Source: an uncultured virus (IMG/VR IMGVR_UViG_3300044640_001869) (Duplodnaviria > Heunggongvirae > Uroviricota > Caudoviricetes). From it: DNA of 64,000 nucleotides. The notes under the pieces are model-generated. The model saw only the letters and a list, made by a program, of their open reading frames with translations. It did not search any database and was not told where the DNA came from. Position 1 is the first letter of the stretch, and the number at the start of each line of letters is the position of its first letter. A program made the translations under genes and the position numbers. The stretch covers positions 1 to 64,000 of the IMG/VR virus record IMGVR_UViG_3300044640_001869. The stretch is one strand, 5' to 3'. Below, piece after piece: positions 35,088-54,091 of the stretch.

Positions 35088-35144
35088 TTCTAAAAACTTT
35101 TATTATAAATATTAGACCTTCTTGATATATATCAATATTTATTC

Positions 35145-35179
35145 TATATTTGTATAGAGAAACAAACAAAGTTCTTTGA
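35145..35179 (+). promoter_or_regulatory. Bacteroidetes-type -7 promoter plus boxA-like element for tmRNA
   Basis: TATATTTG 35145-35152; GTTCTTTGA 35171-35179. Confidence 0.7.
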
Positions 35180-35184
35180 TTTAT

Positions 35185-35573
35185 GGGGATAACTTGGAAT
35201 TGACCGACATGGTTAACTATTCGGGGCACGCAGTGAGACGATATCTATCACTTAAATCTATGGTATCGAAGTACAAACGGCAACGTTTTAAATACTCTTT
35301 CTAAAATCGGATTAATCCGTGAAGAAGAAGTTGTTGTAGCTTAAGAAGTTACGACGACGCGGGTCGATGGACATATAACCCAGGAACAGAAGTCTTTAAA
35401 AAGACGGAAAAACGATTGAGTCCGTAAATCGAATCGTCCATTGGTTGTTATTTTTACGATGGTGAAGAACAAAAATAACTATTTTCGGAACATTAGAAAA
35501 TGTTGACCTAAGCGTGTAGTCCTTAATACTTAAAATGTACGACACGAGGGTTCGAGTCCCTCTATCTCCACCA
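35185..35573 (+). ncRNA. ssrA: tmRNA
   Basis: 5' GGGGATA pairs with TATCTCC-ACCA including G3:U70; T-arm GAGGGTTCGAGTCCCTC; tag ORF 35279-35344 GNVLNTLSKIGLIREEEVVVA*. Confidence 0.93.
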
Positions 35574-35576
35574 AAT

Positions 35577-35611
35577 AAAAAACCCCACCTTTTTAGGAAT
35601 GGGGTTTTTTT
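35577..35611. terminator. Bidirectional terminator
   Basis: AAAAAACCCCA...TGGGGTTTTTT. Confidence 0.8.
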
Positions 35612-35618
35612 ATTTATA

Positions 35619-36305
35619 TTATTTTTGACAAGAAAAAGAACTACATTTTTGTATCTGACTTTTATCTAATGAAAAAGAAACAACACCTAAAGTATTACTA
35701 CCCGCTTTATAGAATTTTTTAGGGTCATTAAGAACTTCCACGCATTCATTTTTAGAATTTTTAATTGTGATGAATCTACCTATTTTACAAACGGTCCCAT
35801 AAAATGTAACAACTTCACTTGGGTCATTTACCGGCATAAATCCGGTTCTACGTTCTTGATTAATAACATCAATACTCATACCAACTTTTAATTGGGGTAT
35901 GTTTTTGGTATTATCTTGTTCATTCATCACGACCCTATTAAAATATTTCTCAACACTTTTAATAACGTCATACATATTAGCGTTAGATGGGCTCCACGAT
36001 TTAACAAGTTTGTTGTTAACAATTAATTCCACCACATTTTTTTTATTACTTAATTGGTGCATAGGACTATTATAACGAACAAGAATACCTTTATGACTAT
36101 CAACATCACCTTTAGTTAATTGTATAACACCCATTGATTTTGTCATACTAGTATCTTTTTTAAAACCTTTAGGTGTTAAGGCCTTTATAACTGTATCAAA
36201 ATGTGTTGATGGGTCTTGAGGGTCAAGTCCACCTTCTTGTTCTCTAATAACTCTTTTAACTATACGAACCAAATCCGATTCTGTTAATCTTATTACTTTT
36301 TTCAT
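35619..36305 (-). CDS. Putative head-packaged protein
   Basis: N-terminal MKKVIRLTESDLVRIVKRVIRE. Confidence 0.6.
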   Translation of the reverse strand: MKKVIRLTESDLVRIVKRVIREQEGGLDPQDPSTHFDTVIKALTPKGFKKDTSMTKSMGVIQLTKGDVDSHKGILVRYNSPMHQLSNKKNVVELIVNNKLVKSWSPSNANMYDVIKSVEKYFNRVVMNEQDNTKNIPQLKVGMSIDVINQERRTGFMPVNDPSEVVTFYGTVCKIGRFITIKNSKNECVEVLNDPKKFYKAGSNTLGVVSFSLDKSQIQKCSSFSCQK

Positions 36306-36693: not shown

Positions 36694-36766
36694 TAGCAAC
36701 GGACCGGAATCGAACCAGCTTGGGTCGGCTTATGAGACCGATGAGATACCTTACCTCCCCCCTGCT
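36694..36766 (-). tRNA. tRNA (CAT anticodon), irregular acceptor stem
   Basis: TCGGT-CTCATAA-GCCGA anticodon arm; GCTGG-TTCGATT-CCGGT T-arm. Confidence 0.7.
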
Positions 36767-36777
36767 ATATATAAAAA

Positions 36778-37660
36778 AACGCTGAGATTATACGTATTAT
36801 TGAGAACCTTTTGAAGGATTATTGTTTCCCTTCTTATCCACTTCCTTTTGAGAAGTATTCCTCAGTGACGGTTTTTTAGGTGAACCACTCCTTGAGATAA
36901 TAGTTACTCTCTCATTACTCAACTCTCTTCGAGAATGCCTTCCCAATTAATCCTTGCGAGATTAGAGGTTTTTGGTAAGAATTTAGGTCGACTTGCGGTC
37001 TTCCTAGGCAATGAACTGCTCATTACTATGTAGTCACCTTTCACTATTACCTGACGAACACTTTTGCTTAAATTTATAATTTAATTTTTACATTAACCTT
37101 GTAAATTAAAGTTTTTGTGTTGTGGATGAATCAAAGTAGTGGTCCGTCTTTTAGATTCGTCGTCTTTTGAACAACGAAATACCAAACTACTCTGTGAAGT
37201 ATCCCTACCTCAATATTTTAAGATTACTTCGAGAAAATTCTTTTGGTAAAGAATAATCAAGGAAAATGTCAGCACCACCTGTTTGTTTTCATACCTTTCG
37301 GTTTTAAGTCACCTCTTATATTGGAACTCGTAATAATAATATCGGATAACACTATTTCTCACATAATTCCTACGAGTTATTCCTATTGGTGTTCCCACCT
37401 CAATTTGATGACCCACATCACCAAATCATATAACCACTTTCTCTACATCGTTGACCTCGATACTAAAGGTTATACGGTATCCCGCTTGTGTACTCGACCT
37501 CAGTTTCCCAAGACGCAGACCCGTTACACTTGGGGGTCCACTTTATCCTACTTTCGTAGTTTATTTAATGACCATACACGGCCAAATATCTTTATCAGTT
37601 TGTTACTCAAAATCAACCACAAGGGTCTCATCATCAAACATTCTGAACGGATAATTCAAT
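36778..37660 (-). ncRNA. Large structured ncRNA candidate (GOLLD-like)
   Basis: ~880 nt with no credible ORF, many hairpins, promoter and boxA upstream, tRNA and terminator downstream. Confidence 0.65.
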
Positions 37661-37663
37661 TTT

Positions 37664-37708
37664 TCAAAGAACTCTTTCGGACTTTTCCGATTTTGTTTTA
37701 CAAATTTA
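37664..37708 (-). promoter_or_regulatory. -7 promoter and boxA-like element
   Basis: TAAATTTG 37701-37708; GTTCTTTGA 37664-37672. Confidence 0.7.
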
Positions 37709-37749
37709 AGACTTTCTTTTTGATTTGTCAAGTCTTTTTTAAAACTTTT

Positions 37750-42946: not shown

Positions 42947-43615
42947 TTATCCTACTACGTTTAACATTTCTTCTGTATGGTGGTCGTGTTCCAAATGTGA
43001 ATGAATTGGTTGTTTTGACATTATTGGTAGAATGTCATCAACAATGTGGTATGGTCTAAATTCAGGATGTCCGTCCATACCAACATCCATTCGTTTTCCT
43101 TTCCCTAATTTAATATCATTAGGTAAGTGACAGTGACCGTGTAGATGTATTTCACCTTTATTCAATCCATTCCAAGAATCAATCGGGTAGTGAAACAATC
43201 TAATATTAATTTTACCCAATACCAATGTGTTATATTGTGAAACACTTGAGAATAACGATTGAATGTTTTCTTTGTTATTCTCAATGTGGTGGTCGTGGTT
43301 ACCCAAAATTAAGTGTATGTTTTTACATATAATTCTTTCTCTGAATTTTCTAATGAATTCAAAACCACCAAATGACCAATCACCCAAGTGAATTAACACA
43401 TCATCTTGTTTAACATATTGGTTTATATTATCCACAATCATATCGTTCATTATATCCAACGATTTGAAGTCACGAGTTTCTTTGATTGGAACTGAACCAT
43501 CAGGTTTTCTCCAATTAGTAGTCCCACGACAAATGTTTGAGTGATTGTAGTGAGTATCTGATGTTATCCAAACATCAGGTAAATTTCCTTTTCTATCTTT
43601 TTCAATTTTTATCAT
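42947..43615 (-). CDS. Calcineurin-like metallophosphoesterase
   Basis: SDTH, LGD, GNHD, HYP, HGHCH. Confidence 0.9.
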   Translation of the reverse strand: MIKIEKDRKGNLPDVWITSDTHYNHSNICRGTTNWRKPDGSVPIKETRDFKSLDIMNDMIVDNINQYVKQDDVLIHLGDWSFGGFEFIRKFRERIICKNIHLILGNHDHHIENNKENIQSLFSSVSQYNTLVLGKINIRLFHYPIDSWNGLNKGEIHLHGHCHLPNDIKLGKGKRMDVGMDGHPEFRPYHIVDDILPIMSKQPIHSHLEHDHHTEEMLNVVG

Positions 43616-46842: not shown

Positions 46843-48111
46843 CTAAAGTTTTTTTTTTAATCCACTGTTTGTGATTTCTTCAGTAATTGACCCAGGACCT
46901 TTAACTTTATTTAAAGCTATTGGTGATGAGTTACCCGCACGTCTAACCCAAGCAATTTTACCACCATCTAATAACCTATTATAAGGGTCGGCATAAACTT
47001 GTCCGTGAACGTTATGGAATATAATTGGAACACCATCTTTAATCGCACCTACTATACCTACGTGAGTATTCATACCCCAAGCATTACCTGATTTAAGAGT
47101 ATTACCTGGAACGTATTTACCATTATTTTTTAGAATATATGGTTTATTACCTGATATGGCGTTTTTACCCCCAAGATAAAAAGCTTTTTCGTGATTTTCT
47201 GAAGTTGGGTAGTATATACCAACAACATCATTAAGTTGTAATTTAGGCGGTGCTGATTTAATCAAACTTCTTACTAAATTTCTAGCATCATTAATATAAT
47301 TACCTTTAGCACCACCTGATTTATCTATTTTAACCCATAAATCAGTGATTCTTTTAACATCATCAGGTGATAAACCTCTAAATGACGTAAAAATACGTGG
47401 ACCTATTTGGTCTTTACTATGAGCTAACCAAGCATCCCCAACGGATTCAAGTTTAGTATCAAAATCGTTAACAAACTGAGCACATTCACGTTGACCCGCA
47501 CCAAAGACAGGTGTTGATTTACCCGTACTAATTTTAGGACCAACTTTAACTATTTTTGATAAAAAATTAGGATTAGTTGTTTTACTAACAATAGTGTCTG
47601 ATTTATCAATTGGATTTGGAACAGGTTTTTCACCACATTTAAACCCACTTGATTTATATTCAATCCAAGAATTGAACCCACAAGATTTCGCTCTCATTAA
47701 TTTTTGTTGTGGGGTTAATTTAGTGTCATCTTCAGGTTTTGGTTTTGGCTCAGGAATAGGTTTTGGTTTTGGTTTTGGTTTTGGCTCAGGAATAGGTTTT
47801 GGTTTTGGGTCAGGAATAGGTCTTGGGTCAGGAATAGGTTTTGGAGTAGGTTCAACATCAGGTACAACATTAATACCTGTTTTATTATTTAATATAGTTA
47901 TGGCTTTAGGATATCCTGATAAATCCACCCATTCAGTTCCATTTTTTAGTTTAGCGTACCAAGTGTTATTTGATATTTTGTAATCGTATTTTCTATCAAT
48001 ATTGTCAAATATTTGTTCAACAGAATCTTCAAAAAGATAGTTATTTTCTTTGATTATTGAATTAACAACATTTATTAAATCTGTTTCTTTTAAACGAATT
48101 GTTTTTTTCAT
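46843..48111 (-). CDS. Putative virion protein with Pro-Lys repeats and CHAP/NlpC-like domain
   Basis: IRLKETDL N-terminus, CAQFV...GDAW...THVGIV. Confidence 0.6.
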   Translation of the reverse strand: MKKTIRLKETDLINVVNSIIKENNYLFEDSVEQIFDNIDRKYDYKISNNTWYAKLKNGTEWVDLSGYPKAITILNNKTGINVVPDVEPTPKPIPDPRPIPDPKPKPIPEPKPKPKPKPIPEPKPKPEDDTKLTPQQKLMRAKSCGFNSWIEYKSSGFKCGEKPVPNPIDKSDTIVSKTTNPNFLSKIVKVGPKISTGKSTPVFGAGQRECAQFVNDFDTKLESVGDAWLAHSKDQIGPRIFTSFRGLSPDDVKRITDLWVKIDKSGGAKGNYINDARNLVRSLIKSAPPKLQLNDVVGIYYPTSENHEKAFYLGGKNAISGNKPYILKNNGKYVPGNTLKSGNAWGMNTHVGIVGAIKDGVPIIFHNVHGQVYADPYNRLLDGGKIAWVRRAGNSSPIALNKVKGPGSITEEITNSGLKKKL

Positions 48112-48174
48112 CTTAAAATTGTTTATTAATAAATATTCTTAAATGAAAAAAAAAACATATTGGTTTAGAATTAC

Positions 48175-48283
48175 GTTATCAATACAGGATTCGAACCTGT
48201 GAGTCCCCGTGTATAGGTATCATACATACCACATTCCCAGACTTTATGTATGCTCAACCTTAAACCACTCGGTCAATAAATAA
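48175..48283 (-). ncRNA. tRNA-like element with expanded anticodon arm
   Basis: D-arm TGACCGAGTGGTTTAAGGT and T-arm ACAGGTTCGAATCCTGT; CATACATA/TATGTATG stem with 16-nt loop. Confidence 0.55.
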
Positions 48284-48284
48284 A

Positions 48285-48454
48285 CCCCTCCTGAGATTAC
48301 GGAGAGTAGATATTCACAGTTTTCTTATGCAAAACCCAACGCGTCTTACCGCTTAAAAATCAACTCTTACTTGGGGGATAGGAGAGTCTTCCTTCCGATT
48401 CCCAATGAATACCCCGTAACGTGGATGGTATCAGTTCCGTTAAGTTTTGAGGGA
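48285..48454 (-). ncRNA. ~170-nt structured RNA candidate
   Basis: Ends pair (CCCTC/GAGGG, TTAACGGA/TCCGTAA, GATA/TATC); internal hairpins. Confidence 0.45.
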
Positions 48455-48489
48455 CTCTTAAAAACCCATTGAGTTTCTCGAACTCATTG

Positions 48490-48515
48490 TTGCCCCACAG
48501 GGATTCAAACCCTGA
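48490..48515 (-). pseudogene. tRNA 3' fragment (Gln-like acceptor GGGGCA-A)
   Basis: CAGGG-TTTGAAT-CCCTG-TGGGGCAA with no 5' half. Confidence 0.6.
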
Positions 48516-48558
48516 TTATGGAATTAGTCTTTTTGATACTATCCACATATTTATTGTT

Positions 48559-48921
48559 ATGGAAACTAAAATTTGTACTTCGTGTAATGAAGAAAAATCA
48601 GTAACTGAATTCTATCAACAAAACGATAGACCTTCAAAACAATCAAAATGTAAAGTCTGCTTCAATAAATATTGTTCTGAACGTTGGATTAAAACAAAAA
48701 TAAAAGCTATTGAGTATAAAGGTGGTAAATGTTTAGATTGTTCTAATTCATACCCTAAATCACCATATGTTATTTTTGATTTTCATCATCGTGACCCATC
48801 ACAAAAAGATGTTGAATGGACTCACTTACGAAAACGTTCTTGGGATAAAATAATTAAAGAACTTGATAAATGTGATTTACTTTGTTCAAATTGTCATCGT
48901 ATCCGTCATCACAACGAGTAG
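48559..48921 (+). mobile_element. Free-standing HNH endonuclease inserted antisense in the tRNA cluster
   Basis: CxxC pairs, FDFHH, LLCSNCHRIRH; flanked by a 16-bp direct repeat of tRNA T-arms. Confidence 0.8.
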
Positions 48922-48991
48922 TCCTACAGGGATTCAAACCCCAACGAAACCCTTAGAAGGGGCTTATGCTATTCAGTTACATCATAGGACC
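48919..48991 (-). tRNA. tRNA-Arg(TCT)
   Basis: Cloverleaf, loop CTTCTAA; T-loop TTTGAAT. Confidence 0.8.
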
Positions 48992-48997
48992 AAAATA

Positions 48998-49073
48998 TGG
49001 TGGAGGTACTGGTAATCGAAACCAGATTTGTAAATTGCAAATCTACCGTAATAAGCCATTATACGATACCCCC
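48998..49073 (-). tRNA. tRNA-Ala(TGC)
   Basis: Loop TTTGCAA, G3:U70, encoded CCA. Confidence 0.88.
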
Positions 49074-49188
49074 ATAATAAAAAGACAACAGGTAATACTC
49101 ACATTTATTATTACCCAACTCAACGACCTTTATAGTTGTGAATCTGTTTTAAAGGTTTTCCTCGGTGAAGAGTTTGTTGTCTATTTTG

Positions 49189-49261
49189 AGCGGGTGGAGG
49201 GAATCGAACCCTCGTCTTTAAATTGGAAGTCTAATATAATAATCCACTATACGACACCCGC
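49189..49261 (-). tRNA. tRNA-Gly(TCC)
   Basis: Loop CTTCCAA. Confidence 0.88.
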
Positions 49262-49347
49262 TAATTTGGGTAGAATCAGACGCGTTCTGTCTACCGAGAC
49301 CTCATCGTTAATAAGTTACCTTATCAGAGCGTTCTGAGACACTATTG

Positions 49348-49427
49348 TGAACCTGGTGGGAGTCGAACCCACAATCCTAAGAACTTCCGCTTAAAGAAAG
49401 CGTGTATACCAATTTCACCACAGGTCC
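49348..49427 (-). tRNA. tRNA-Leu(TAA)
   Basis: Loop TTTAAGC, variable arm. Confidence 0.85.
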
Positions 49428-49486
49428 TTGAGTGTAGTAGGGCAGCAGTCCCTTGAGGCACCTACACAAGTTTTTCCTCTTTTTTG

Positions 49487-49558
49487 CGGACCATGAAGGA
49501 TTCGAACCTACGACCTATCGGTTAACAGCCGATTGCTCTACCGCTGAGCTAATAGTCC
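49487..49558 (-). tRNA. tRNA-Asn(GTT)
   Basis: Loop CTGTTAA. Confidence 0.9.
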
Positions 49559-49564
49559 ATTGTG

Positions 49565-49637
49565 AGGTCCCTAACGGATTCGAACCGTTATCTCTGGGTT
49601 ACAAAGCCAGAATAATAAGCCATTATACTAAGAGACC
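49565..49637 (-). tRNA. tRNA-Thr(TGT)
   Basis: Loop TTTGTAA. Confidence 0.85.
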
Positions 49638-49661
49638 AATTAAGAGTGTTATTTCTCTTTG

Positions 49662-49733
49662 CTGAATAATAAGGAATTGAACCTTAATCTTGAATCCGTA
49701 TTACCATCATCCGTGCACCGTACACCATACTCA
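49662..49733 (-). pseudogene. Degenerate tRNA-like element
   Basis: Acceptor, D-like and T-arm (TAAGG-TTCAATT-CCTTA) present; anticodon arm irregular. Confidence 0.45.
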
Positions 49734-49783
49734 ATCGGATGTTTCGAACCATCCATATAAAGGGTTATAACTCCTTTATTTTG

Positions 49784-49856
49784 AGCGGTAGAGAGGAATC
49801 GAACCTCCGTCCTAACCTTGGCAAGGTTATATAATAAACCATTATACGACTACCGC
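49784..49856 (-). tRNA. tRNA-Gly(GCC)
   Basis: Loop TTGCCAA. Confidence 0.9.
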
Positions 49857-50077
49857 AAGTTGTGATTACTCCATTGGGTATGTTTCATCACATTAACGTG
49901 ATGAGGCGGCCAAACCTACTAATATCACGAAGAAATTTTATATCGACTTAAAATTTCTCAAAAAATCGTCAGTTTTTATCGGTCAAAACTGAATAAACGG
50001 TTTGATACCTTGTAACCTCATTTTAAAGTGCGTGTTACAATCCTCTCTCAAACAGAACTCTACTGTGTACACTCCCG

Positions 50078-50149
50078 CGGTCTATGCGAGAATCGAACTC
50101 GCGGCACATCCGTGACAGGGATGTATGTTAGCCACTACACTAATAGACC
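50078..50149 (-). tRNA. tRNA-Asp(GTC)
   Basis: Loop CTGTCAC. Confidence 0.9.
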
Positions 50150-50348
50150 ATTTTAAAAAAACAAGTTTTTCGTGACCATTACACATCATAACCAATTTTA
50201 CTCGGTGATTACATTTTCGTCATTTGGGTAGCTAATCCCAGACTTATAGTAATTCTACCCTCAATAACTTTACTACCGCGAATCAAGTACCGTCTTGGGA
50301 TTTATAGACAGTGAGGGTTTACTCACCGTCCTCACTTGTTTTATTTAG

Positions 50349-50420
50349 TAGCGGGAACAGGATTCGAACCTGTGTCTCAGGGTTATGAGCCCAGCGGGGT
50401 GACCACTCCCCCATCCCGCG
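50349..50420 (-). tRNA. Initiator tRNA-fMet(CAT)
   Basis: C1:U72 mismatch, GGG/CCC anticodon stem. Confidence 0.88.
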
Positions 50421-50425
50421 ATATG

Positions 50426-50499
50426 TATCGCGTACGGGATTCGAACCCGTGATTTTCACCTTGAAAGGGTGACGACTTAAACCACTCGTCTAACGCGAC
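50426..50499 (-). tRNA. tRNA-Glu(TTC)
   Basis: Loop CTTTCAA. Confidence 0.9.
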
Positions 50500-50518
50500 A
50501 TTTTATTTTTTCTATTCC

Positions 50519-50561
50519 GATATGTCAAAGACCTTTTGTTTTCTTTTGTCTTACAAATCTA
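50519..50561 (-). promoter_or_regulatory. Internal -7 promoter and boxA-like element
   Basis: TAGATTTG 50554-50561; GGTCTTTGACATAT. Confidence 0.65.
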
Positions 50562-50592
50562 AGTATTTACTTTTGATTATACAAGACTTTTT

Positions 50593-51108
50593 TTAAAGTA
50601 ATTTATCCTTATATAATTCAAACAATTCGTTTATATTACTAGAACATAAAATTGGGGTTATTCTATTTATCTCATCATCATTAAAATCCCACCATTTTAA
50701 TTTTAAAAGTTTTTGAATTGTTTCATCATCAAATCTTTTACGGATAGGTTTAGCTGGATTACCTCCAACAATAGTGTAAGGTTCAACATTTTTTACTACG
50801 TGAGAATTATTTGCAATAACGGCACCATCACCAATAATAACACCTGACATTATTGTTGCATTAGCACCAATCCAAACATCATTACCAATTATAACATCAC
50901 CATTAGATGACGGATGACCCACACTAAACGAATGTGGAAATGGGAATGTTGTAATCCAATCAGGTCTATGATTACCCCCAATAAAAATTTGAATATTTGT
51001 TGCTATTGAACAAAAAGACCCTATTTTAATTGTTTTACCTTCACCCCATTCGTAAATTTTAATATTTTCAGAACCGTAAGTTTTTCTACCAACACTATAT
51101 ATTGACAT
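50593..51108 (-). CDS. CatB/Vat-related hexapeptide-repeat O-acetyltransferase
   Basis: IGSFCSIA, NH, TTFPF, IGNDVWIG, VGGNPAK, WWD. Confidence 0.9.
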   Translation of the reverse strand: MSIYSVGRKTYGSENIKIYEWGEGKTIKIGSFCSIATNIQIFIGGNHRPDWITTFPFPHSFSVGHPSSNGDVIIGNDVWIGANATIMSGVIIGDGAVIANNSHVVKNVEPYTIVGGNPAKPIRKRFDDETIQKLLKLKWWDFNDDEINRITPILCSSNINELFELYKDKLL

Positions 51109-51139
51109 AATTTTTATTTTTTATTTTTTATTTTTTCAG

Positions 51140-51213
51140 TAGTTCAGGAGGGATTTGAACCCCCAACCTTGACGATATAAGCGTCCTGCTCTCACCTGTT
51201 GAGCTACTGAACC
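51140..51213 (-). tRNA. tRNA-Ile(TAT)
   Basis: Loop CTTATAT. Confidence 0.85.
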
Positions 51214-51219
51214 ATTATG

Positions 51220-51292
51220 TATCCTCGGTGGGATTCGAACCCACAAAACCTTGTTTCTAAGACAAGGACGTATACCTTTCCGTCACGAGGAT
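51220..51292 (-). tRNA. tRNA-Leu(TAG), short variable loop
   Basis: Loop CTTAGAA; 5-nt variable region. Confidence 0.85.
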
Positions 51293-51298
51293 ATTAAC

Positions 51299-51347
51299 TT
51301 CTAAACCAATATGTCAAAGAACTTTTTTCTTTTGTCTGACAAATCTA
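51299..51347 (-). promoter_or_regulatory. -7 promoter, boxA-like element and leader helix strand (operon A)
   Basis: TAGATTTG 51340-51347; GTTCTTTGACATATTGGTTTAGAA. Confidence 0.7.
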
Positions 51348-51381
51348 ATGCTTTTATTTTGATTTACCAAACGTAGGTAAC

Positions 51382-51413
51382 AAAAAAAACCCCTCTCTTT
51401 TGGAGAAGGGTTT
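51382..51413 (-). terminator. Attenuator terminator A
   Basis: AAACCCTTCTC-CAAAA-GAGAGGGG followed by T8. Confidence 0.85.
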
Positions 51414-51437
51414 CATTTAAATTTTATGTTTAATGAA

Positions 51438-51512
51438 TTAACACACCTTCTCCGATACACAAGGATTGTCTCCCTCCGTTCTCGCTATTAGTATGTTATT
51501 CAAGTTTTGCAT
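51438..51512 (-). CDS. Leader peptide A (24 aa, MQNLNNILIARTEGDNPCVSEKVC)
   Basis: Codons match downstream tRNAs; contains GGAGAAGG (51446-51453), complementary to the terminator 5' arm. Confidence 0.8.
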   Translation of the reverse strand: MQNLNNILIARTEGDNPCVSEKVC

Positions 51513-51590
51513 AATTTTGTTATTCTTTACTAATTAAATATATCAAAGTTTTGAAAAGTGTCAACAATTGGTTTAAATTTTTTTTTATTG

Positions 51591-51673
<83 letters not shown>

Positions 51674-51744
51674 GAATATATCGTAGATTGTCCTTCACAA
51701 TTTAACGGCGGGTTTGAACTTAATCAACTCTCCTACGATATTTG

Positions 51745-51816
51745 CGCACCACCAAGGACTCGAACCCTGACCAAATGGGTTGGAACCATTTATGCTAGCC
51801 ATTACACCAATGATGC
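51745..51816 (-). tRNA. tRNA-Trp(CCA)
   Basis: Loop TTCCAAC. Confidence 0.85.
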
Positions 51817-51842
51817 AAATAATGAAACAATATATTTCATTG

Positions 51843-51916
51843 AGGACAGAGAGGGATTCGAACCCCCGGATAGTGGATTTGCAGTCCACCCCTTTAAACC
51901 ACTCAGGCATCTGTCC
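51843..51916 (-). tRNA. tRNA-Cys(GCA)
   Basis: Loop CTGCAAA, U73. Confidence 0.9.
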
Positions 51917-52026
51917 AATTAAATATTAAGTCGCGAGTAATCCATCTGTCGCTTATTACTAGAATCTTGTGGCTTACTTACTATAGTTCATACCGTTACC
52001 ACTAGGAAACCCAACTTAACATTTTG

Positions 52027-52098
52027 TAGCCCCTGTAGGACTCGAACCTACACTATCTTGTATGTAAAACAAGTACTTCACCTTTAAGCTAAAGGGCT
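52027..52098 (-). tRNA. tRNA-Val(TAC)
   Basis: Loop TTTACAT. Confidence 0.85.
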
Positions 52099-52106
52099 AA
52101 TTATTG

Positions 52107-52181
52107 TGACCCCGGTGAGAATCGAACTCACGACCCGTACATTAAAAGTGTACTGCTCTAAACCAACTGAGCTACGAAGTC
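52107..52181 (-). tRNA. tRNA-Lys(TTT)
   Basis: Loop CTTTTAA. Confidence 0.9.
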
Positions 52182-52307
52182 AAAAATAGAAGGTCACCGA
52201 TAACACCTTCCGTGGTGGGTTATTTAATGTCATTTTCTCTAATTACACCTAAGTGTCATAGTCGCAGGGTCCCACTTTACTGACAAACCCGATTCGGTAT
52301 TAAGTAG

Positions 52308-52381
52308 TCGGAATGGTAGGGTTCGAACCTACGACCTTTCACGTATCAGGCGAATGCTCTTACCAGCTGAGCTACATTCCG
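52308..52381 (-). tRNA. tRNA-Ile(GAT)
   Basis: Loop CTGATAC. Confidence 0.88.
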
Positions 52382-52389
52382 TTAATTTT

Positions 52390-52464
52390 TGGTCGGGGTG
52401 GCAGGTGTCGAACCTGCCGCCTCTTGGTCCCAAACCAAGCGTCTCACCCCAAGACTACACCCCG
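52390..52464 (-). tRNA. tRNA-Pro(TGG)
   Basis: Loop TTTGGGA, encoded CCA. Confidence 0.88.
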
Positions 52465-52474
52465 TTATTTCTTT

Positions 52475-52519
52475 CTAAACCAATATGTCAAAGACCTTTT
52501 CTTTTGTCTAACAAAGATA
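52475..52519 (-). promoter_or_regulatory. Internal -7 promoter and boxA-like element
   Basis: TATCTTTG 52512-52519; GGTCTTTGACATATTGGTTTAG. Confidence 0.65.
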
Positions 52520-52563
52520 AGTAATCATTTCCATTCTCACAATACCTTTGTAATATTTTTTTG

Positions 52564-52633
52564 TACCGAGTATGGGTTTCGAACCCACTTGACCATCCTT
52601 ATGAGAGATAGTTCTTTTCCTCTAAGCCTCGGT
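52564..52633 (-). tRNA. tRNA (CAT; elongator Met or Ile2) with atypical D-arm
   Basis: Loop CTCATAA; T-arm GTGGG-TTCGAAA-CCCAT. Confidence 0.65.
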
Positions 52634-52640
52634 GTTTCTG

Positions 52641-52728
52641 CGGAAGATGTGGGGCTCGAACCCACGCGTCATATTTCAGACCTATCACGTTAGCAATGTG
52701 ACCCCTTCACCAACTTGGGTAATCTTCC
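52641..52728 (-). tRNA. tRNA-Ser(GCT)
   Basis: Loop TTGCTAA, long variable arm. Confidence 0.9.
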
Positions 52729-52768
52729 AAATTACACCGACCTAGCTCGGTATCACACATCGGATACG

Positions 52769-52840
52769 TAGTCCCCCAAGGACTCGAACCTTGACATTAT
52801 CGTCCGTAGCGATAGGTGCTATCCATTACACCAAGGAACC
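52769..52840 (-). tRNA. tRNA-Arg(ACG)
   Basis: Loop CTACGGA. Confidence 0.88.
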
Positions 52841-52933
52841 AAATAATAAGGTTGGAGACTTATAATCGACCATTATAAGGTTCCAGCCTTATATTCATCA
52901 ATTATTAGGTTTTAACCTAATATTCACCCATTA

Positions 52934-53131
52934 TTAGGTTATTACCTTATATTGAGTTTTTCTGTAGTGTTTCCAAGTCTTATACATTCTAACTTGATAA
53001 CTCATTTTGTTTCCGTAGAAAGTAATTCCGTCATCCCAATAAATTGGATAAAAGTCATTTATCAATCTATTTCGGTATTCTCTACCATTTTGTGCTTTGT
53101 TCAGTTTTGCTCTGTTGATGTTTGTACTCAT
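52934..53131 (-). CDS. Small basic protein (65 aa) within tRNA operon
   Basis: MSTNINRAKLNKAQ...TWKHYRKTQYK. Confidence 0.6.
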   Translation of the reverse strand: MSTNINRAKLNKAQNGREYRNRLINDFYPIYWDDGITFYGNKMSYQVRMYKTWKHYRKTQYKVIT

Positions 53132-53157
53132 AGTTGTGGTTTTTAACCTACAACTTG

Positions 53158-53370
53158 TCAAATTTTTTCTTCATTTTGTTTAATGTAATCTAATGCAATG
53201 TGTATCAAACCATTGAGATATTGCCATTTAGGACTTGCGTTCGGATAATGACCGAATATCTCAACTAATTTTTCTTCTTGCCATTTCCTTTCACTTACGA
53301 TTGGAGATAACCATCGACCATTTTCTAAGTCGGAACTGATAAATGTTTTTTCTGTCTCTGTGATTTCTAA
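53158..53370 (-). pseudogene. 70-codon open frame lacking a canonical start
   Basis: LEITETEKTF...EEKI*, protein-like composition, stop two codons upstream. Confidence 0.35.
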
Positions 53371-53387
53371 GTTTTAAAAATTAATTG

Positions 53388-53462
53388 GGTGACTATTGGG
53401 ATTCGAACCCAACCTATAAGAACCACAAACTTACGTGCTCGACCACTAACACTATAGCCACC
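53388..53462 (-). tRNA. tRNA-His(GTG)
   Basis: G-1 and C73, loop TTGTGGT. Confidence 0.88.
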
Positions 53463-53542
53463 ATATAAAAACCCCACTTCATCAGCTTAACGGACTGACT
53501 GCCATATCGGAGGTGGGGGTATCCTGTTAATTCAGGACCTCG

Positions 53543-53615
53543 TGGGACAGGAGGGAATCGAACCCCCATTGCTTGTTCTTCAGACAAGTGCCTTGACCAA
53601 CTTGGCAACTGACCC
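53543..53615 (-). tRNA. tRNA-Phe(GAA)
   Basis: Loop CTGAAGA. Confidence 0.85.
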
Positions 53616-53698
53616 AATTTATTAGTTATTGATGTTGACACGGCCTTCGTGAGCCTATAAGACCATCTTTTAACGTGAAATAACTAATTGTTTTATTG

Positions 53699-53773
53699 TT
53701 GTCCCGGCAGGAATCGAACCTGCGATATCCACATTCAAAGTGTGGTGGCTCTGCCAACGTCGCCTACAGGACA
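53699..53773 (-). tRNA. tRNA-Gln(TTG)
   Basis: U1-A72, loop CTTTGAA. Confidence 0.88.
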
Positions 53774-53780
53774 ATAATGG

Positions 53781-53906
53781 TTACTTATGTAACCTTTTGA
53801 TTAATTTTCTAATTAATCTGAATTTTAGTTTAACCTCTTTAGGCTCTTGTCTTAAAAATCTTTTACTTGACTCAAATGTTCCCGTCAATACTTCTCTTTT
53901 TACCAT
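53781..53906 (-). CDS. Small basic peptide (41 aa, MVKREVLTGTFESSKRF...)
   Basis: Fills the spacer between tRNA-Ser and tRNA-Gln. Confidence 0.45.
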   Translation of the reverse strand: MVKREVLTGTFESSKRFLRQEPKEVKLKFRLIRKLIKRLHK

Positions 53907-53921
53907 AACTCTATTTTTTTG

Positions 53922-54008
53922 AGGAGAGTGTGGGACTCGAACCCACAAGACCCATTACACGTCTTACTACTTTTCAAGAGTAGCTCTTCATCCTGCCAGA
54001 TACTCTCC
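53922..54008 (-). tRNA. tRNA-Ser(TGA)
   Basis: Loop CTTGAAA, long variable arm. Confidence 0.85.
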
Positions 54009-54013
54009 TTATT

Positions 54014-54057
54014 TATCTAAACCAATATGTCAATGAACTTTTCTGTTGTCAAAGGTA
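54014..54057 (-). promoter_or_regulatory. -7 promoter, boxA-like element and leader helix strand (operon B)
   Basis: TACCTTTG 54050-54057; GTTCATTGACATATTGGTTTAGAT. Confidence 0.7.
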
Positions 54058-54091
54058 CGAATTTCATTTCGTAACTTCCAAATTTTATTTC

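What the first reader, a model, noticed from the sequence alone, without database searches (positions are those of the whole stretch)
48146..54038. Both tRNA operons are bracketed by long-range leader/trailer helices, as in pre-rRNA
Seen: a perfect 16-bp inverted repeat joins 51299-51314 (just after the boxA of operon A) to 48155-48170 (end of the cluster), where the transcript continues into a U10 run. The operon B leader TTGACATATTGGTTTAGAT (~54015-54033) can pair with ATTTAAACCAATTGTTGA (~51561-51578) just after tRNA-Tyr. Inference: Nus-assisted looping and RNase III-type processing, or a long-range terminator formed only by full-length transcripts.
Basis: partly seen in the sequence, partly recalled or inferred. 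Interest (0 to 1): 0.75.

Follow-up and report, generated by a model that had tools for sequence, protein, structure and literature searches.

The report
rRNA-style helix framing phage tRNA operons
A lake phage of Bacteroidota starts its tRNA gene blocks with the same signal and stem strand that its host phylum puts in front of 23S ribosomal RNA, and places the matching strand just after the last tRNA, so the tRNA precursor is probably made and closed like a ribosomal RNA precursor.

Summary
A perfect 16-bp complement joins 51314-51299 to 48170-48155, and 54033-54015 pairs imperfectly with 51578-51561. The leader arm is not unique. It belongs to a promoter-leader module present four times (54.0, 52.5, 51.3, 50.5 kb). 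Each module has a Bacteroidota-type promoter, an A-rich stretch, a boxA-like 11-mer and the arm, with the first tRNA 6-11 nt later.

In eight related phage lineages the arms stay complementary through compensatory changes, in 3 columns of helix A and 4 of helix B. Each type-1 to type-4 leader's best partner within 5.6-18 kb is a trailer arm, and 8 of 9 full-length operon folds contain the helix.

The boxA-like element and the first ~10 nt of the arm are identical to the 16S-23S spacer of many Bacteroidota rrn operons. There that strand opens the pre-23S leader-trailer stalk. The phage therefore frames its tRNA arrays like a pre-23S rRNA.

Nus loading, RNase III cleavage and termination remain inferred. 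A U-run follows the arm in only 4 of 8 rows. The window's helix B is a degenerate remnant.

This scan has noted the same layout in other phages. Six literature searches found no description.

The parts
54050..54081 (-). promoter-like site of the first tRNA block (Bacteroidota type, TTG, 21-nt spacer, TAnnTTTG)
   Evidence: strict pattern match; the same site stands upstream of the leader in relatives
54028..54038 (-). boxA-like 11-mer of leader B (one T-to-A variant)
   Evidence: the same variant occurs in a host rrn spacer (L200)
54015..54033 (-). leader arm B; the first tRNA (Ser) starts 7 nt later at 54008
   Evidence: (I14)
52512..52542 (-). promoter-like site of the second block (before tRNA-Pro)
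52473..52496 (-). boxA-like 11-mer (52496-52486) overlapping leader arm B2 (52488-52473); tRNA-Pro starts at 52464
   Evidence: (I11)
51561..51578 (-). trailer arm B, 13 nt after tRNA-Tyr. It is degenerate in this lineage: about 20 nt are missing relative to L040, and it now overlaps the promoter-like site of a small ORF.
51340..51370 (-). promoter-like site of the third block (before tRNA-Leu(tag))
51299..51322 (-). boxA-like 11-mer (51322-51312) overlapping leader arm A (51314-51299); tRNA-Leu starts at 51292
   Evidence: (I10)
50554..50584 (-). promoter-like site of the fourth block (before tRNA-Glu)
50510..50533 (-). boxA-like 11-mer (50533-50523) overlapping leader arm A2 (50525-50510). 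This is the 'type 2' variant with no matching trailer in this window; in L037 and L053 it pairs with trailer A.
48918..54008 (-). 25 tRNA genes enclosed by the arms
48171..48292 (-). conserved tRNA-like remnant (T-arm consensus) that ends 5 nt before trailer arm A. It is not called as a tRNA.
   Evidence: (z 0.93)
48155..48170 (-). trailer arm A, the perfect complement of three leader arms
48146..48155 (-). T10 run directly after trailer arm A. There is no local hairpin. The next gene starts at 48111.

Best explanation
The tRNA blocks of this phage are built like a pre-23S rRNA transcription unit of its host phylum (Bacteroidota).

Each block starts with a host-type promoter. This gives a leader of roughly 40-45 nt: an A-rich stretch, a boxA-like 11-mer, and directly overlapping its last three bases a 14-16-nt arm. 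The first tRNA follows 6-11 nt later. A complementary arm sits 4-13 nt after the last tRNA or tRNA-like gene, or after an inserted ORF in some relatives. In the primary transcript the two arms pair and close the whole tRNA array (1.6-3.3 kb, or 5.9 kb from the first leader) into a loop.

Shown: the complementarity, its syntenic position, its maintenance by compensatory changes, and its identity with the boxA-proximal base of host pre-23S stalks.

Inferred, by analogy with rrn operons:
- boxA loads NusB/S10 and the other Nus factors. This protects a long untranslated transcript from Rho and keeps the leader at the RNA exit of the polymerase.
- The trailer pairs with the leader as it emerges.
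- The duplex then marks the ends of the array for host double-strand-specific processing (RNase III type) and/or shields the ends, while RNase P and 3' trimming release the tRNAs.
For: Anatomy:
- Four leader copies lie 6-11 nt before the first tRNA of a block.
- Each copy is preceded by a strict TTG-N20/21-TAnnTTTG match (4 of the 17 minus-strand matches in 126 kb).

Specificity:
- In the window and 9 relatives, 22 type-1 to type-4 leader arms were scanned over 5.6-18 kb of sense strand.
- For 21 of the 22 the best duplex partner is a trailer arm, about 5 to 8 sd below the scan mean. In 17 of these it is the arm of the leader's own operon. In the window and L038, leaders B and B2 prefer trailer A.
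- Exceptions: the window's A2 variant has no partner, and the second leader of L188 has none within its contig.

Covariation (coordinate-only script):
- Helix A, 8 rows: column 5 is A-U x4, G-C x3, G.U x1. Columns 12 and 13 are U-A x2, A-U x6.
- Helix B, 9 rows: columns 13 and 14 are U-A x7, A-U x2. Column 16 is G-C x4, G.U x2, A-U x1. Column 18 also changes on both sides.
- In 5 of 7 genomes with both operons, each leader prefers its own operon's trailer.

Folding: the helix is in the minimum-energy fold of the whole operon transcript in 8 of 9 cases.

Homology to rrn:
- The 80-nt promoter+leader was searched in 401 sampled Bacteroidota genomes. It hits the boxA-like element plus arm start at 95-100% over 18-26 nt in at least 30 of them.
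- In 5 of 8 loci examined this block lies between the spacer tRNAs and the 23S gene.
- In 3 of 3 host genomes tested the strand starting at the same base pairs with a partner about 3040 nt downstream, after 23S, at -35 to -44 kcal/mol.
- boxA-like elements with the same core also stand 80-200 nt before 16S in 25 of 78 Bacteroidota loci. In 4 of 5 host 16S leaders examined, a leader-trailer pairing starts a few nt after it.

Literature: the gamma-proteobacterial boxA consensus GYTCTTTAANA (PMC5725501, passages read) is matched at 10 of 11 positions. The rrn model of boxA-anchored leader meeting the trailer is in PMC10250234 (passages read).
Against: - No RNA data.
- The helix is short: 14-17 bp against about 40 bp in host stalks. 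It corresponds to the part of the stalk farthest from the mature ends, so RNase III cutting is not implied.
- The pairing is not always kept. The window's helix B is decayed (-15.1 kcal/mol). L037, L053 and L185 have one or two U.U mismatches in helix B. All 'type 2' helix-A trailers lack one base. L036 helix A is barely better than the cross-pairing (-15.4 against -14.8).
- The window's fourth leader has no partner, and the first sub-block (Ser to Ser(gct)) has no trailer of its own.
- The lineages are few and related, so the compensatory columns may reflect only four or five events.
- A 16-bp perfect inverted repeat alone arose in 3 of 100 shuffles.
- RNase P should cut the leader from the first tRNA quickly. 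Pairing in cis over kilobases would then need tethering, which is assumed, not shown.
Confidence: 0.65

Rival explanations
1. Long-range intrinsic terminator. At the end of the cluster the trailer arm, paired with a leader that the polymerase still carries, takes the place of a terminator hairpin. Together with the U-run that follows, it ends transcription only of polymerases that started at a tRNA promoter.
For: - In the window the arm is followed at once by a T-run (7 of the next 8 bases after the extended duplex).
- No local hairpin terminator stands at the cluster end, while ordinary ones stand at 54127-54097 and 51414-51386.
- L038, L036 and L052 have the same layout (7-8 of 8 T).
Against: - Only 4 of 8 helix-A rows have a U-tract after the arm. 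L040, L037 and L053 have 2 of 8, and L057 has 4 of 8.
- Helix-B trailers have 1-5 of 8.
- The T-run goes with the downstream gene. It appears with the same following letters wherever the homologue of the 422-aa ORF follows, so it may belong to that gene's upstream region.
- In L040, L037 and L053 the T-run lies before the arm instead.
Confidence: 0.2
2. Inherited, not selected. The phage once copied both flanks of a host 23S gene together with boxA, and the complementarity is a leftover of that capture without a present role.
For: - The arm start is letter-identical to host rrn spacers.
- The helix is much shorter than the host stalk.
- Trailer B in the window has decayed, and leader A2 is an orphan.
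Against: - The variable outer part of the arms differs between lineages and between the two operons of one genome, yet stays complementary through changes on both sides.
- The position next to the first and last tRNA is kept even where ORFs were inserted.
- A distant relative (L188) with a different tRNA order keeps a matched pair.
Confidence: 0.1
3. A DNA-level element. The inverted copies are sites for a recombinase (invertible or mobile tRNA cassette) or for a DNA-binding regulator that reads both orientations.
For: - Inverted repeats that co-vary are also expected of recombination sites.
- An HNH endonuclease gene lies inside the cluster.
Against: - All contigs examined have the tRNA blocks in the same orientation relative to their promoters: the window and 13 related contigs.
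- Three of the five departures from Watson-Crick pairing are G.U on the tRNA-sense strand and none is A.C, which fits RNA and not DNA.
- The type-2 trailers differ from their leaders by one missing base, which does not suit a crossover site.
- The arm start is an RNA-level rrn signal in hosts.
Confidence: 0.05

Closest known systems
Pre-23S leader-trailer helix (processing stalk) with the 16S-23S spacer boxA of Bacteroidota rrn operons
   Same: - The same boxA-like element.
- The same first ~10 nt of the 5' strand, starting at the same base inside boxA.
- A partner strand just after the enclosed RNA, ending in nearly the same letters.
   Different: - It encloses 2-25 tRNAs instead of 23S rRNA.
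- It is 14-17 bp instead of about 40.
- It has its own promoter directly upstream instead of lying in a spacer.
- Several leaders can share one trailer.
E. coli rrn leader (boxB-boxA-boxC), leader-trailer helix hLT and the rrn antitermination complex (PMC10250234, passages read; PMC4807359 and PMC5725501, abstract and passages)
   Same: - boxA upstream of the 5' strand of a helix that closes the mature RNA into a loop.
- The helix is supported by covariation.
- The proposed anchoring of the leader at the polymerase until the trailer emerges.
   Different: - There is no boxB hairpin in the tRNA leaders.
- boxA and the arm overlap instead of being 18-19 nt apart.
- Factor binding and RNase III cutting are not tested here.
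Lambda nut sites (boxA used by a phage for antitermination; PMC2800207, abstract in a search listing)
   Same: A phage uses the host's boxA signal on its own transcripts.
   Different: Lambda needs its N protein and boxB and acts on mRNA operons. Here no phage factor is known and the units encode stable RNAs.
Phage T4 tRNA cluster precursor, processed by RNase P, 3' trimming enzymes and, at one site, RNase III
   Same: A polycistronic phage tRNA precursor that host RNases process.
   Different: No boxA and no leader-trailer helix around the T4 cluster is known to me. My search for it returned only reviews.
Notes of this scan on other phages (e1-5690792, e1-5771671, e1-5731144, e1-5742077, e1-5708932, e1-5731158)
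   Same: boxA in front of a phage tRNA array, with the bases after it complementary to a site after the last tRNA. One note names the 23S stalk.
   Different: They concern other phages and host phyla. They are unchecked AI notes, and I did not test them on their own DNA.

Membership tests
rrn-type leader-trailer helix with boxA (pre-rRNA processing stalk) | boxA element matching the host's rrn boxA in the 5' leader | tested here: met
   - The core is identical to the one in 25 of 78 Bacteroidota 16S leaders.
- It is identical to 16S-23S spacers of at least 30 of 401 sampled genomes.
- It matches 10 of 11 positions of the consensus quoted in PMC5725501.
rrn-type leader-trailer helix with boxA (pre-rRNA processing stalk) | complementary strands directly flank the 5' and 3' ends of the enclosed mature RNAs | tested here: met
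   - The leader arm ends 6-11 nt before the first tRNA.
- The trailer arm starts 4-13 nt after the last tRNA or tRNA-like gene in the window, L040, L036 and L188.
- It follows an inserted ORF in L038, L037 and L185.
rrn-type leader-trailer helix with boxA (pre-rRNA processing stalk) | pairing kept by compensatory change | tested here: met
   3 of 20 columns in helix A (8 rows) and 4 of 20 in helix B (9 rows) change on both sides and stay paired. The rows are related, so the events are few.
rrn-type leader-trailer helix with boxA (pre-rRNA processing stalk) | long helix (25-40 bp in Enterobacteriaceae per PMC10250234; about 40 bp in the Bacteroidota stalks) | tested here: not met
   14-17 bp, -15 to -24 kcal/mol, against -35 to -44 kcal/mol in hosts.
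rrn-type leader-trailer helix with boxA (pre-rRNA processing stalk) | encloses a ribosomal RNA | tested here: not met
   It encloses tRNA genes only.
rrn-type leader-trailer helix with boxA (pre-rRNA processing stalk) | cleavage by RNase III; binding of NusB-S10 to boxA | not testable with these tools
No RNase III gene was found in the 126 kb held, so a host enzyme would be needed.
intrinsic (hairpin plus U-tract) terminator | G+C-rich local hairpin directly before a U-tract | tested here: not met
   No terminator-like site at 48146-48200. The stem would have to be the long-range helix. A U-tract is present in 4 of 8 rows.
invertible DNA segment flanked by inverted repeats | both orientations found among copies | tested here: not met
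   Only one orientation in the window and 13 related contigs.

The most novel reading that the evidence does not exclude
Self-limiting antitermination. The leader stays bound through boxA to the Nus-modified polymerase even after RNase P has cut it from the first tRNA. When the trailer arm emerges it pairs with the arm, which includes the last three bases of boxA. This pulls boxA off NusB-S10 and dismantles the antitermination complex exactly at the end of the tRNA array. In lineages with a U-run after the arm, the same helix acts as a terminator stem supplied in trans by the polymerase's own cargo. The phage would thus switch host rrn-type antitermination on and off within a few kilobases, using 30 nt of RNA and no protein of its own.
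Probability: 0.15. Interest if true: 0.85.

Novelty: new variant of a known kind. Interest (0 to 1): 0.72.

Why it matters
Phage tRNA clusters are usually treated as plain gene arrays. Here the array carries the host's rRNA-operon grammar: a promoter, boxA, and one strand of the 23S stalk in front with the other strand behind.

If this works as in rrn operons, three things follow:
- The phage enrols the host's Nus antitermination and rRNA-processing machinery to make kilobases of untranslated RNA safe from Rho, and to define its ends.
- It offers a small natural system, a 16-bp helix with tRNA read-outs, for testing what leader-trailer closure does. In rRNA that question is entangled with ribosome assembly.
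- The identity of the leader with rrn spacers is a host-phylum marker for uncultured phages.

The same boxA-like signal also precedes the phage's tmRNA and GOLLD RNA genes. The strategy therefore seems to cover all its stable RNAs.

Tried and rejected
- Leader motif as a promoter. I first read it as a sigma-70 or extended -10 promoter, or a phage-specific promoter. I rejected this because the conserved block would put the start inside the tRNA, and a canonical Bacteroidota promoter stands upstream of every copy.
- The copy at 43410-43427 lies in a coding region and was dropped.
- DNA search of the phage collection gave only tRNA-level and acetyltransferase matches, no relatives.
- Relatives by protein (182-aa neighbour) gave only the two closest contigs.
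- The terminator-pattern scan brought three contigs (L042, L044, L046) that share only the terminator. I left them out of all counts. L186 and L190 lack the cluster layout and were left out too.
There is therefore no read evidence on RNA ends, expression or inversion.
- A second, inverted partner for the second leader of L188 was not found in its contig, which ends 2.9 kb after that leader.
- A tRNA reading of 48171-48292 is not supported.
- No long-range partner was found for the boxA leaders of tmRNA and GOLLD.
- The count of structure pairs was not used, because a row holding both arms would exceed the size limits. The tabulation was done in a script.
- Literature: searches found no paper describing boxA or leader-trailer helices on phage tRNA operons. 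One apparent hit was a PCR primer name. Subscription journals are not covered.


Full report
**What the window is.**
- The window is the first 64 kb of a 126-kb IMG/VR virus record, estimated 42% complete, with 30.7% G+C. Lake-water metagenomes hold it.
- ARAGORN finds 25 tRNA genes on the minus strand between 48918 and 54008, and Rfam agrees.

**The observation.**
- The repeat finder lists 48155-48170 and 51299-51314 as a 16-nt, 100% complementary pair (I10).
- The same downstream arm is just as complementary to 52473-52488 and, over 15 nt, to 54016-54030 (I11, I14).
- The reason is that the upstream arm is part of a repeated unit of 40-75 nt (D8, D12, D13). The unit occurs four times, ending 6-11 nt before tRNA-Ser (54008), tRNA-Pro (52464), tRNA-Leu(tag) (51292) and tRNA-Glu (50499). 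The fourth copy is a variant with three differences.
- The exact 14-mer occurs only four times in the 126-kb record, all here.
- A perfect inverted repeat of 16 or more arose in 3 of 100 dinucleotide shuffles of the region. Length alone proves little.

**What the repeated unit is.**
- I first tried to read it as a promoter. That fails, because the start would fall inside the tRNA.
- Instead, each copy is preceded by a strict match to the promoter pattern known for Bacteroidota: TTG, 19-21 nt, TAnnTTTG (the consensus is recalled; the matches are). The matches end at 54050, 52512, 51340 and 50554.
- The strict pattern occurs 28 times on both strands of the record, against 10.1 +/- 3.2 in shuffles and 19 in the reversed-sequence control. 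The pattern is therefore only mildly enriched overall. The four sites count because of their fixed place and their conservation in relatives.
- The repeated unit is thus a transcribed leader of about 40-45 nt: an A-rich stretch, an 11-mer, then the arm.
- The 11-mer matches the boxA consensus quoted for gamma-proteobacteria (GYTCTTTAANA; PMC5725501, passages read) at 10 of 11 positions. Two copies carry one further change.

**Relatives.**
- Exact-pattern scans of IMG/VR and of the metagenome collection brought 13 contigs with the same cluster. The scans were, with regions fetched.
- L039 is nearly identical to the window.
- The other contigs are L038, L040, L037 (nearly the same as L041), L036 (nearly the same as L049), L052-L057, L185 and the more distant L188.
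- Contigs that shared only a terminator (L042, L044, L046) or lacked the layout (L186, L190) were left out.
- All have the tRNA blocks in one orientation relative to the promoters.

**Two helices, each with its own matched arms.**
- In L040, L037, L036, L053 and L057 the leader before the Ser/Gln block (or its second copy before tRNA-Pro) is complementary to a site after the last tRNA-Tyr ('helix B').
- In the same contigs the leader before tRNA-Leu(tag), which differs in sequence, is complementary to a site 4-12 nt after a conserved tRNA-like remnant at the end of the cluster ('helix A').
- I scanned each 20-nt leader arm against every 30-nt window of 5.6-18 kb of sense strand.
- For 21 of 22 type-1 to type-4 leader arms the best partner is a trailer arm, at -15 to -24 kcal/mol against scan means of about -5 +/- 2.
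- In 17 of these it is the arm of the leader's own operon. In the window and L038 the B-type leaders prefer trailer A.
- Exceptions: the window's fourth leader has no partner, and the second leader of L188 has none within its contig.
- Within a genome, each leader prefers its own operon's trailer in 5 of 7 cases.

**Covariation (a script that used coordinates only).**
- Helix A, 8 rows: column 5 is A-U in 4 rows, G-C in 3 and G.U in 1. Columns 12 and 13 are U-A in 2 rows and A-U in 6.
- Helix B, 9 rows: columns 13 and 14 are U-A in 7 rows and A-U in 2. Column 16 is G-C in 4, G.U in 2 and A-U in 1. Column 18 also changes on both sides.
- Against the pairing: L037, L053 and L185 carry one or two U.U mismatches in helix B. 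All 'type 2' trailers of helix A lack one base, so one U bulges and the neighbouring position is A, G or U. L036's helix A is weak.
- The rows are related, so the events behind these columns are few, perhaps four or five.
- Of five departures from Watson-Crick pairing, three are G.U on the tRNA-sense strand and none is A.C. This fits RNA rather than DNA.

**Whole-transcript folds.** For nine operon transcripts of 1.6-3.3 kb, the minimum-energy fold contains the leader-trailer helix in eight. In L037 operon A the trailer pairs elsewhere, probably with the third leader, which fits it better.

**The link to host rRNA operons: boxA before 16S.**
- A scan of species genomes for a Cytophaga-Flavobacterium 16S probe site gave 78 loci with a 16S 5' end. 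Twenty-five of them carry the same boxA-like core within 400 nt upstream.
- In four of five genomes examined, a 16S leader-trailer pairing begins a few nt after it.

**The link to host rRNA operons: the 23S stalk.**
- I searched the phage's 80-nt promoter+leader in 401 sampled genomes of that phylum.
- In at least 30 genomes in the listed rows, it matched at 95-100% over 18-26 nt. The matched part was exactly the boxA-like element and the first ~10 nt of the arm, often twice per genome.
- One search shows 20 identical letters in four of the loci, and the same T-to-A boxA variant as leader B in another.
- Rfam places the block between the spacer tRNAs and the 23S gene, 120-170 nt before 23S, in 5 of 8 loci. 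The other three show no rRNA within reach.
- In 3 of 3 genomes tested, the strand that starts at the same base as the phage arm pairs with a partner about 3040 nt downstream, just after 23S. The energies are -35 to -44 kcal/mol, and the partner ends in nearly the same letters as the phage trailers.
- The phage helix is therefore the boxA-proximal base of the host phylum's pre-23S stalk, with tRNAs in place of 23S.

**The window's own state.**
- Three leaders (54.0, 52.5 and 51.3 kb) share one arm type, and all fit trailer A perfectly.
- Trailer B has lost about 20 nt relative to L040, so its distal half is gone. What is left overlaps the promoter-like site of a small ORF.
- The fourth leader keeps the other arm type, whose trailer this lineage no longer has.
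In the window it is partly rearranged.

**How it works.**
- Shown: the anatomy, the selection on pairing and the rrn homology.
- Inferred from rrn operons (PMC10250234, passages; PMC4807359, abstract): boxA loads Nus factors, which protect a long untranslated transcript from Rho and hold the leader near the RNA exit until the trailer appears. The duplex then defines the ends of the array.
- RNase III cutting is possible but not implied. The helix is 14-17 bp, and it corresponds to the part of the host stalk farthest from the mature ends. The 126 kb held encode no RNase III.
- The long-range terminator idea fits the window. There is no hairpin terminator at the cluster end, and 7 of 8 T follow the duplex.
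- It does not fit generally. Only 4 of 8 helix-A rows and no helix-B row have this. The T-run also travels with the downstream gene.

**Novelty.**
- Six full-text searches found no paper that describes boxA or leader-trailer helices on phage tRNA operons. Subscription journals are not covered.
- This scan's own earlier notes report the same layout in at least six other phages of other hosts. They are unchecked AI notes, and I did not test them.
- I file the feature as a new variant of a known kind. It works like, and is derived from, the rrn stalk with boxA. It fails two defining features of that family: its length, and enclosing an rRNA.

Noticed in passing
window 35100-35620 (+): A phage-encoded tmRNA (Rfam RF00023, 74.5 bits, 35185-35573) that ARAGORN did not call. 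It is preceded by a Bacteroidota-type promoter-like site and, 6 nt before its 5' end, by the same boxA-like core (35169-35179). A terminator follows at about 35575-35610. I found no long-range partner for its leader.
   Followed up: partly
window 36695-37735 (-): A GOLLD RNA (RF02032, 314 bits, 36779-37194) followed by tRNA-Met (36695-36768) and a terminator. Upstream lie a promoter-like site (37731-37701), a small hairpin and a boxA-like element (37672-37662). All stable-RNA units of the window therefore start with the rrn-type signal.
   Followed up: partly
window 51386-51570 (-): Between the two operons, in all relatives, there is a promoter-like site, a 24-codon ORF (start about 51511) and a strong terminator (51414-51386). 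Upstream segments can pair with the terminator's 5' arm, so it looks like an attenuator placed just before the third tRNA promoter.
   Followed up: no
window 48469-48921 (+): An HNH endonuclease ORF (phrog_2255, E 3e-33) lies antisense inside the last tRNA block. It is absent from L038, where leader and trailer are 693 nt closer.
   Followed up: partly
window 50593-51108 (-): A 171-aa hexapeptide-repeat acetyltransferase ORF (phrog_16087) sits inside the tRNA cluster. It is 71-75% identical in DNA to genes annotated as Vat-family streptogramin O-acetyltransferases in Streptococcus phages.
   Followed up: no
window 48293-48470 (-), also L188: About 180-230 nt between the HNH gene and the tRNA-like remnant are conserved even in the distant relative L188. 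They have no Rfam match at E<=1 and could be an unknown structured RNA.
   Followed up: no
window 48482-48515, 52564-52633, 48171-48292 (-): These are tRNA-like remnants with a T-arm consensus. One is a weak Rfam tRNA hit of 23 bits. ARAGORN does not call any of them as genes.
   Followed up: partly
window 52842-52953: Three tandem 29-nt units, each an imperfect palindrome, lie just upstream of tRNA-Arg(acg) (D10 and I9). They are conserved in relatives.
   Followed up: no
L036 6610-6640, L049, L054, L056, L057: In this lineage an ORF (methyltransferase-like by eye) was inserted right after trailer arm B, and its ATG lies inside the arm. The helix would therefore cover the start codon.
   Followed up: no
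L198 (genome handle G339): A copy of the boxA-like element plus arm start, 96% over 26 nt, has no rRNA or tRNA within 1.5 kb. boxA may therefore also serve other genes in Bacteroidota.
   Followed up: no
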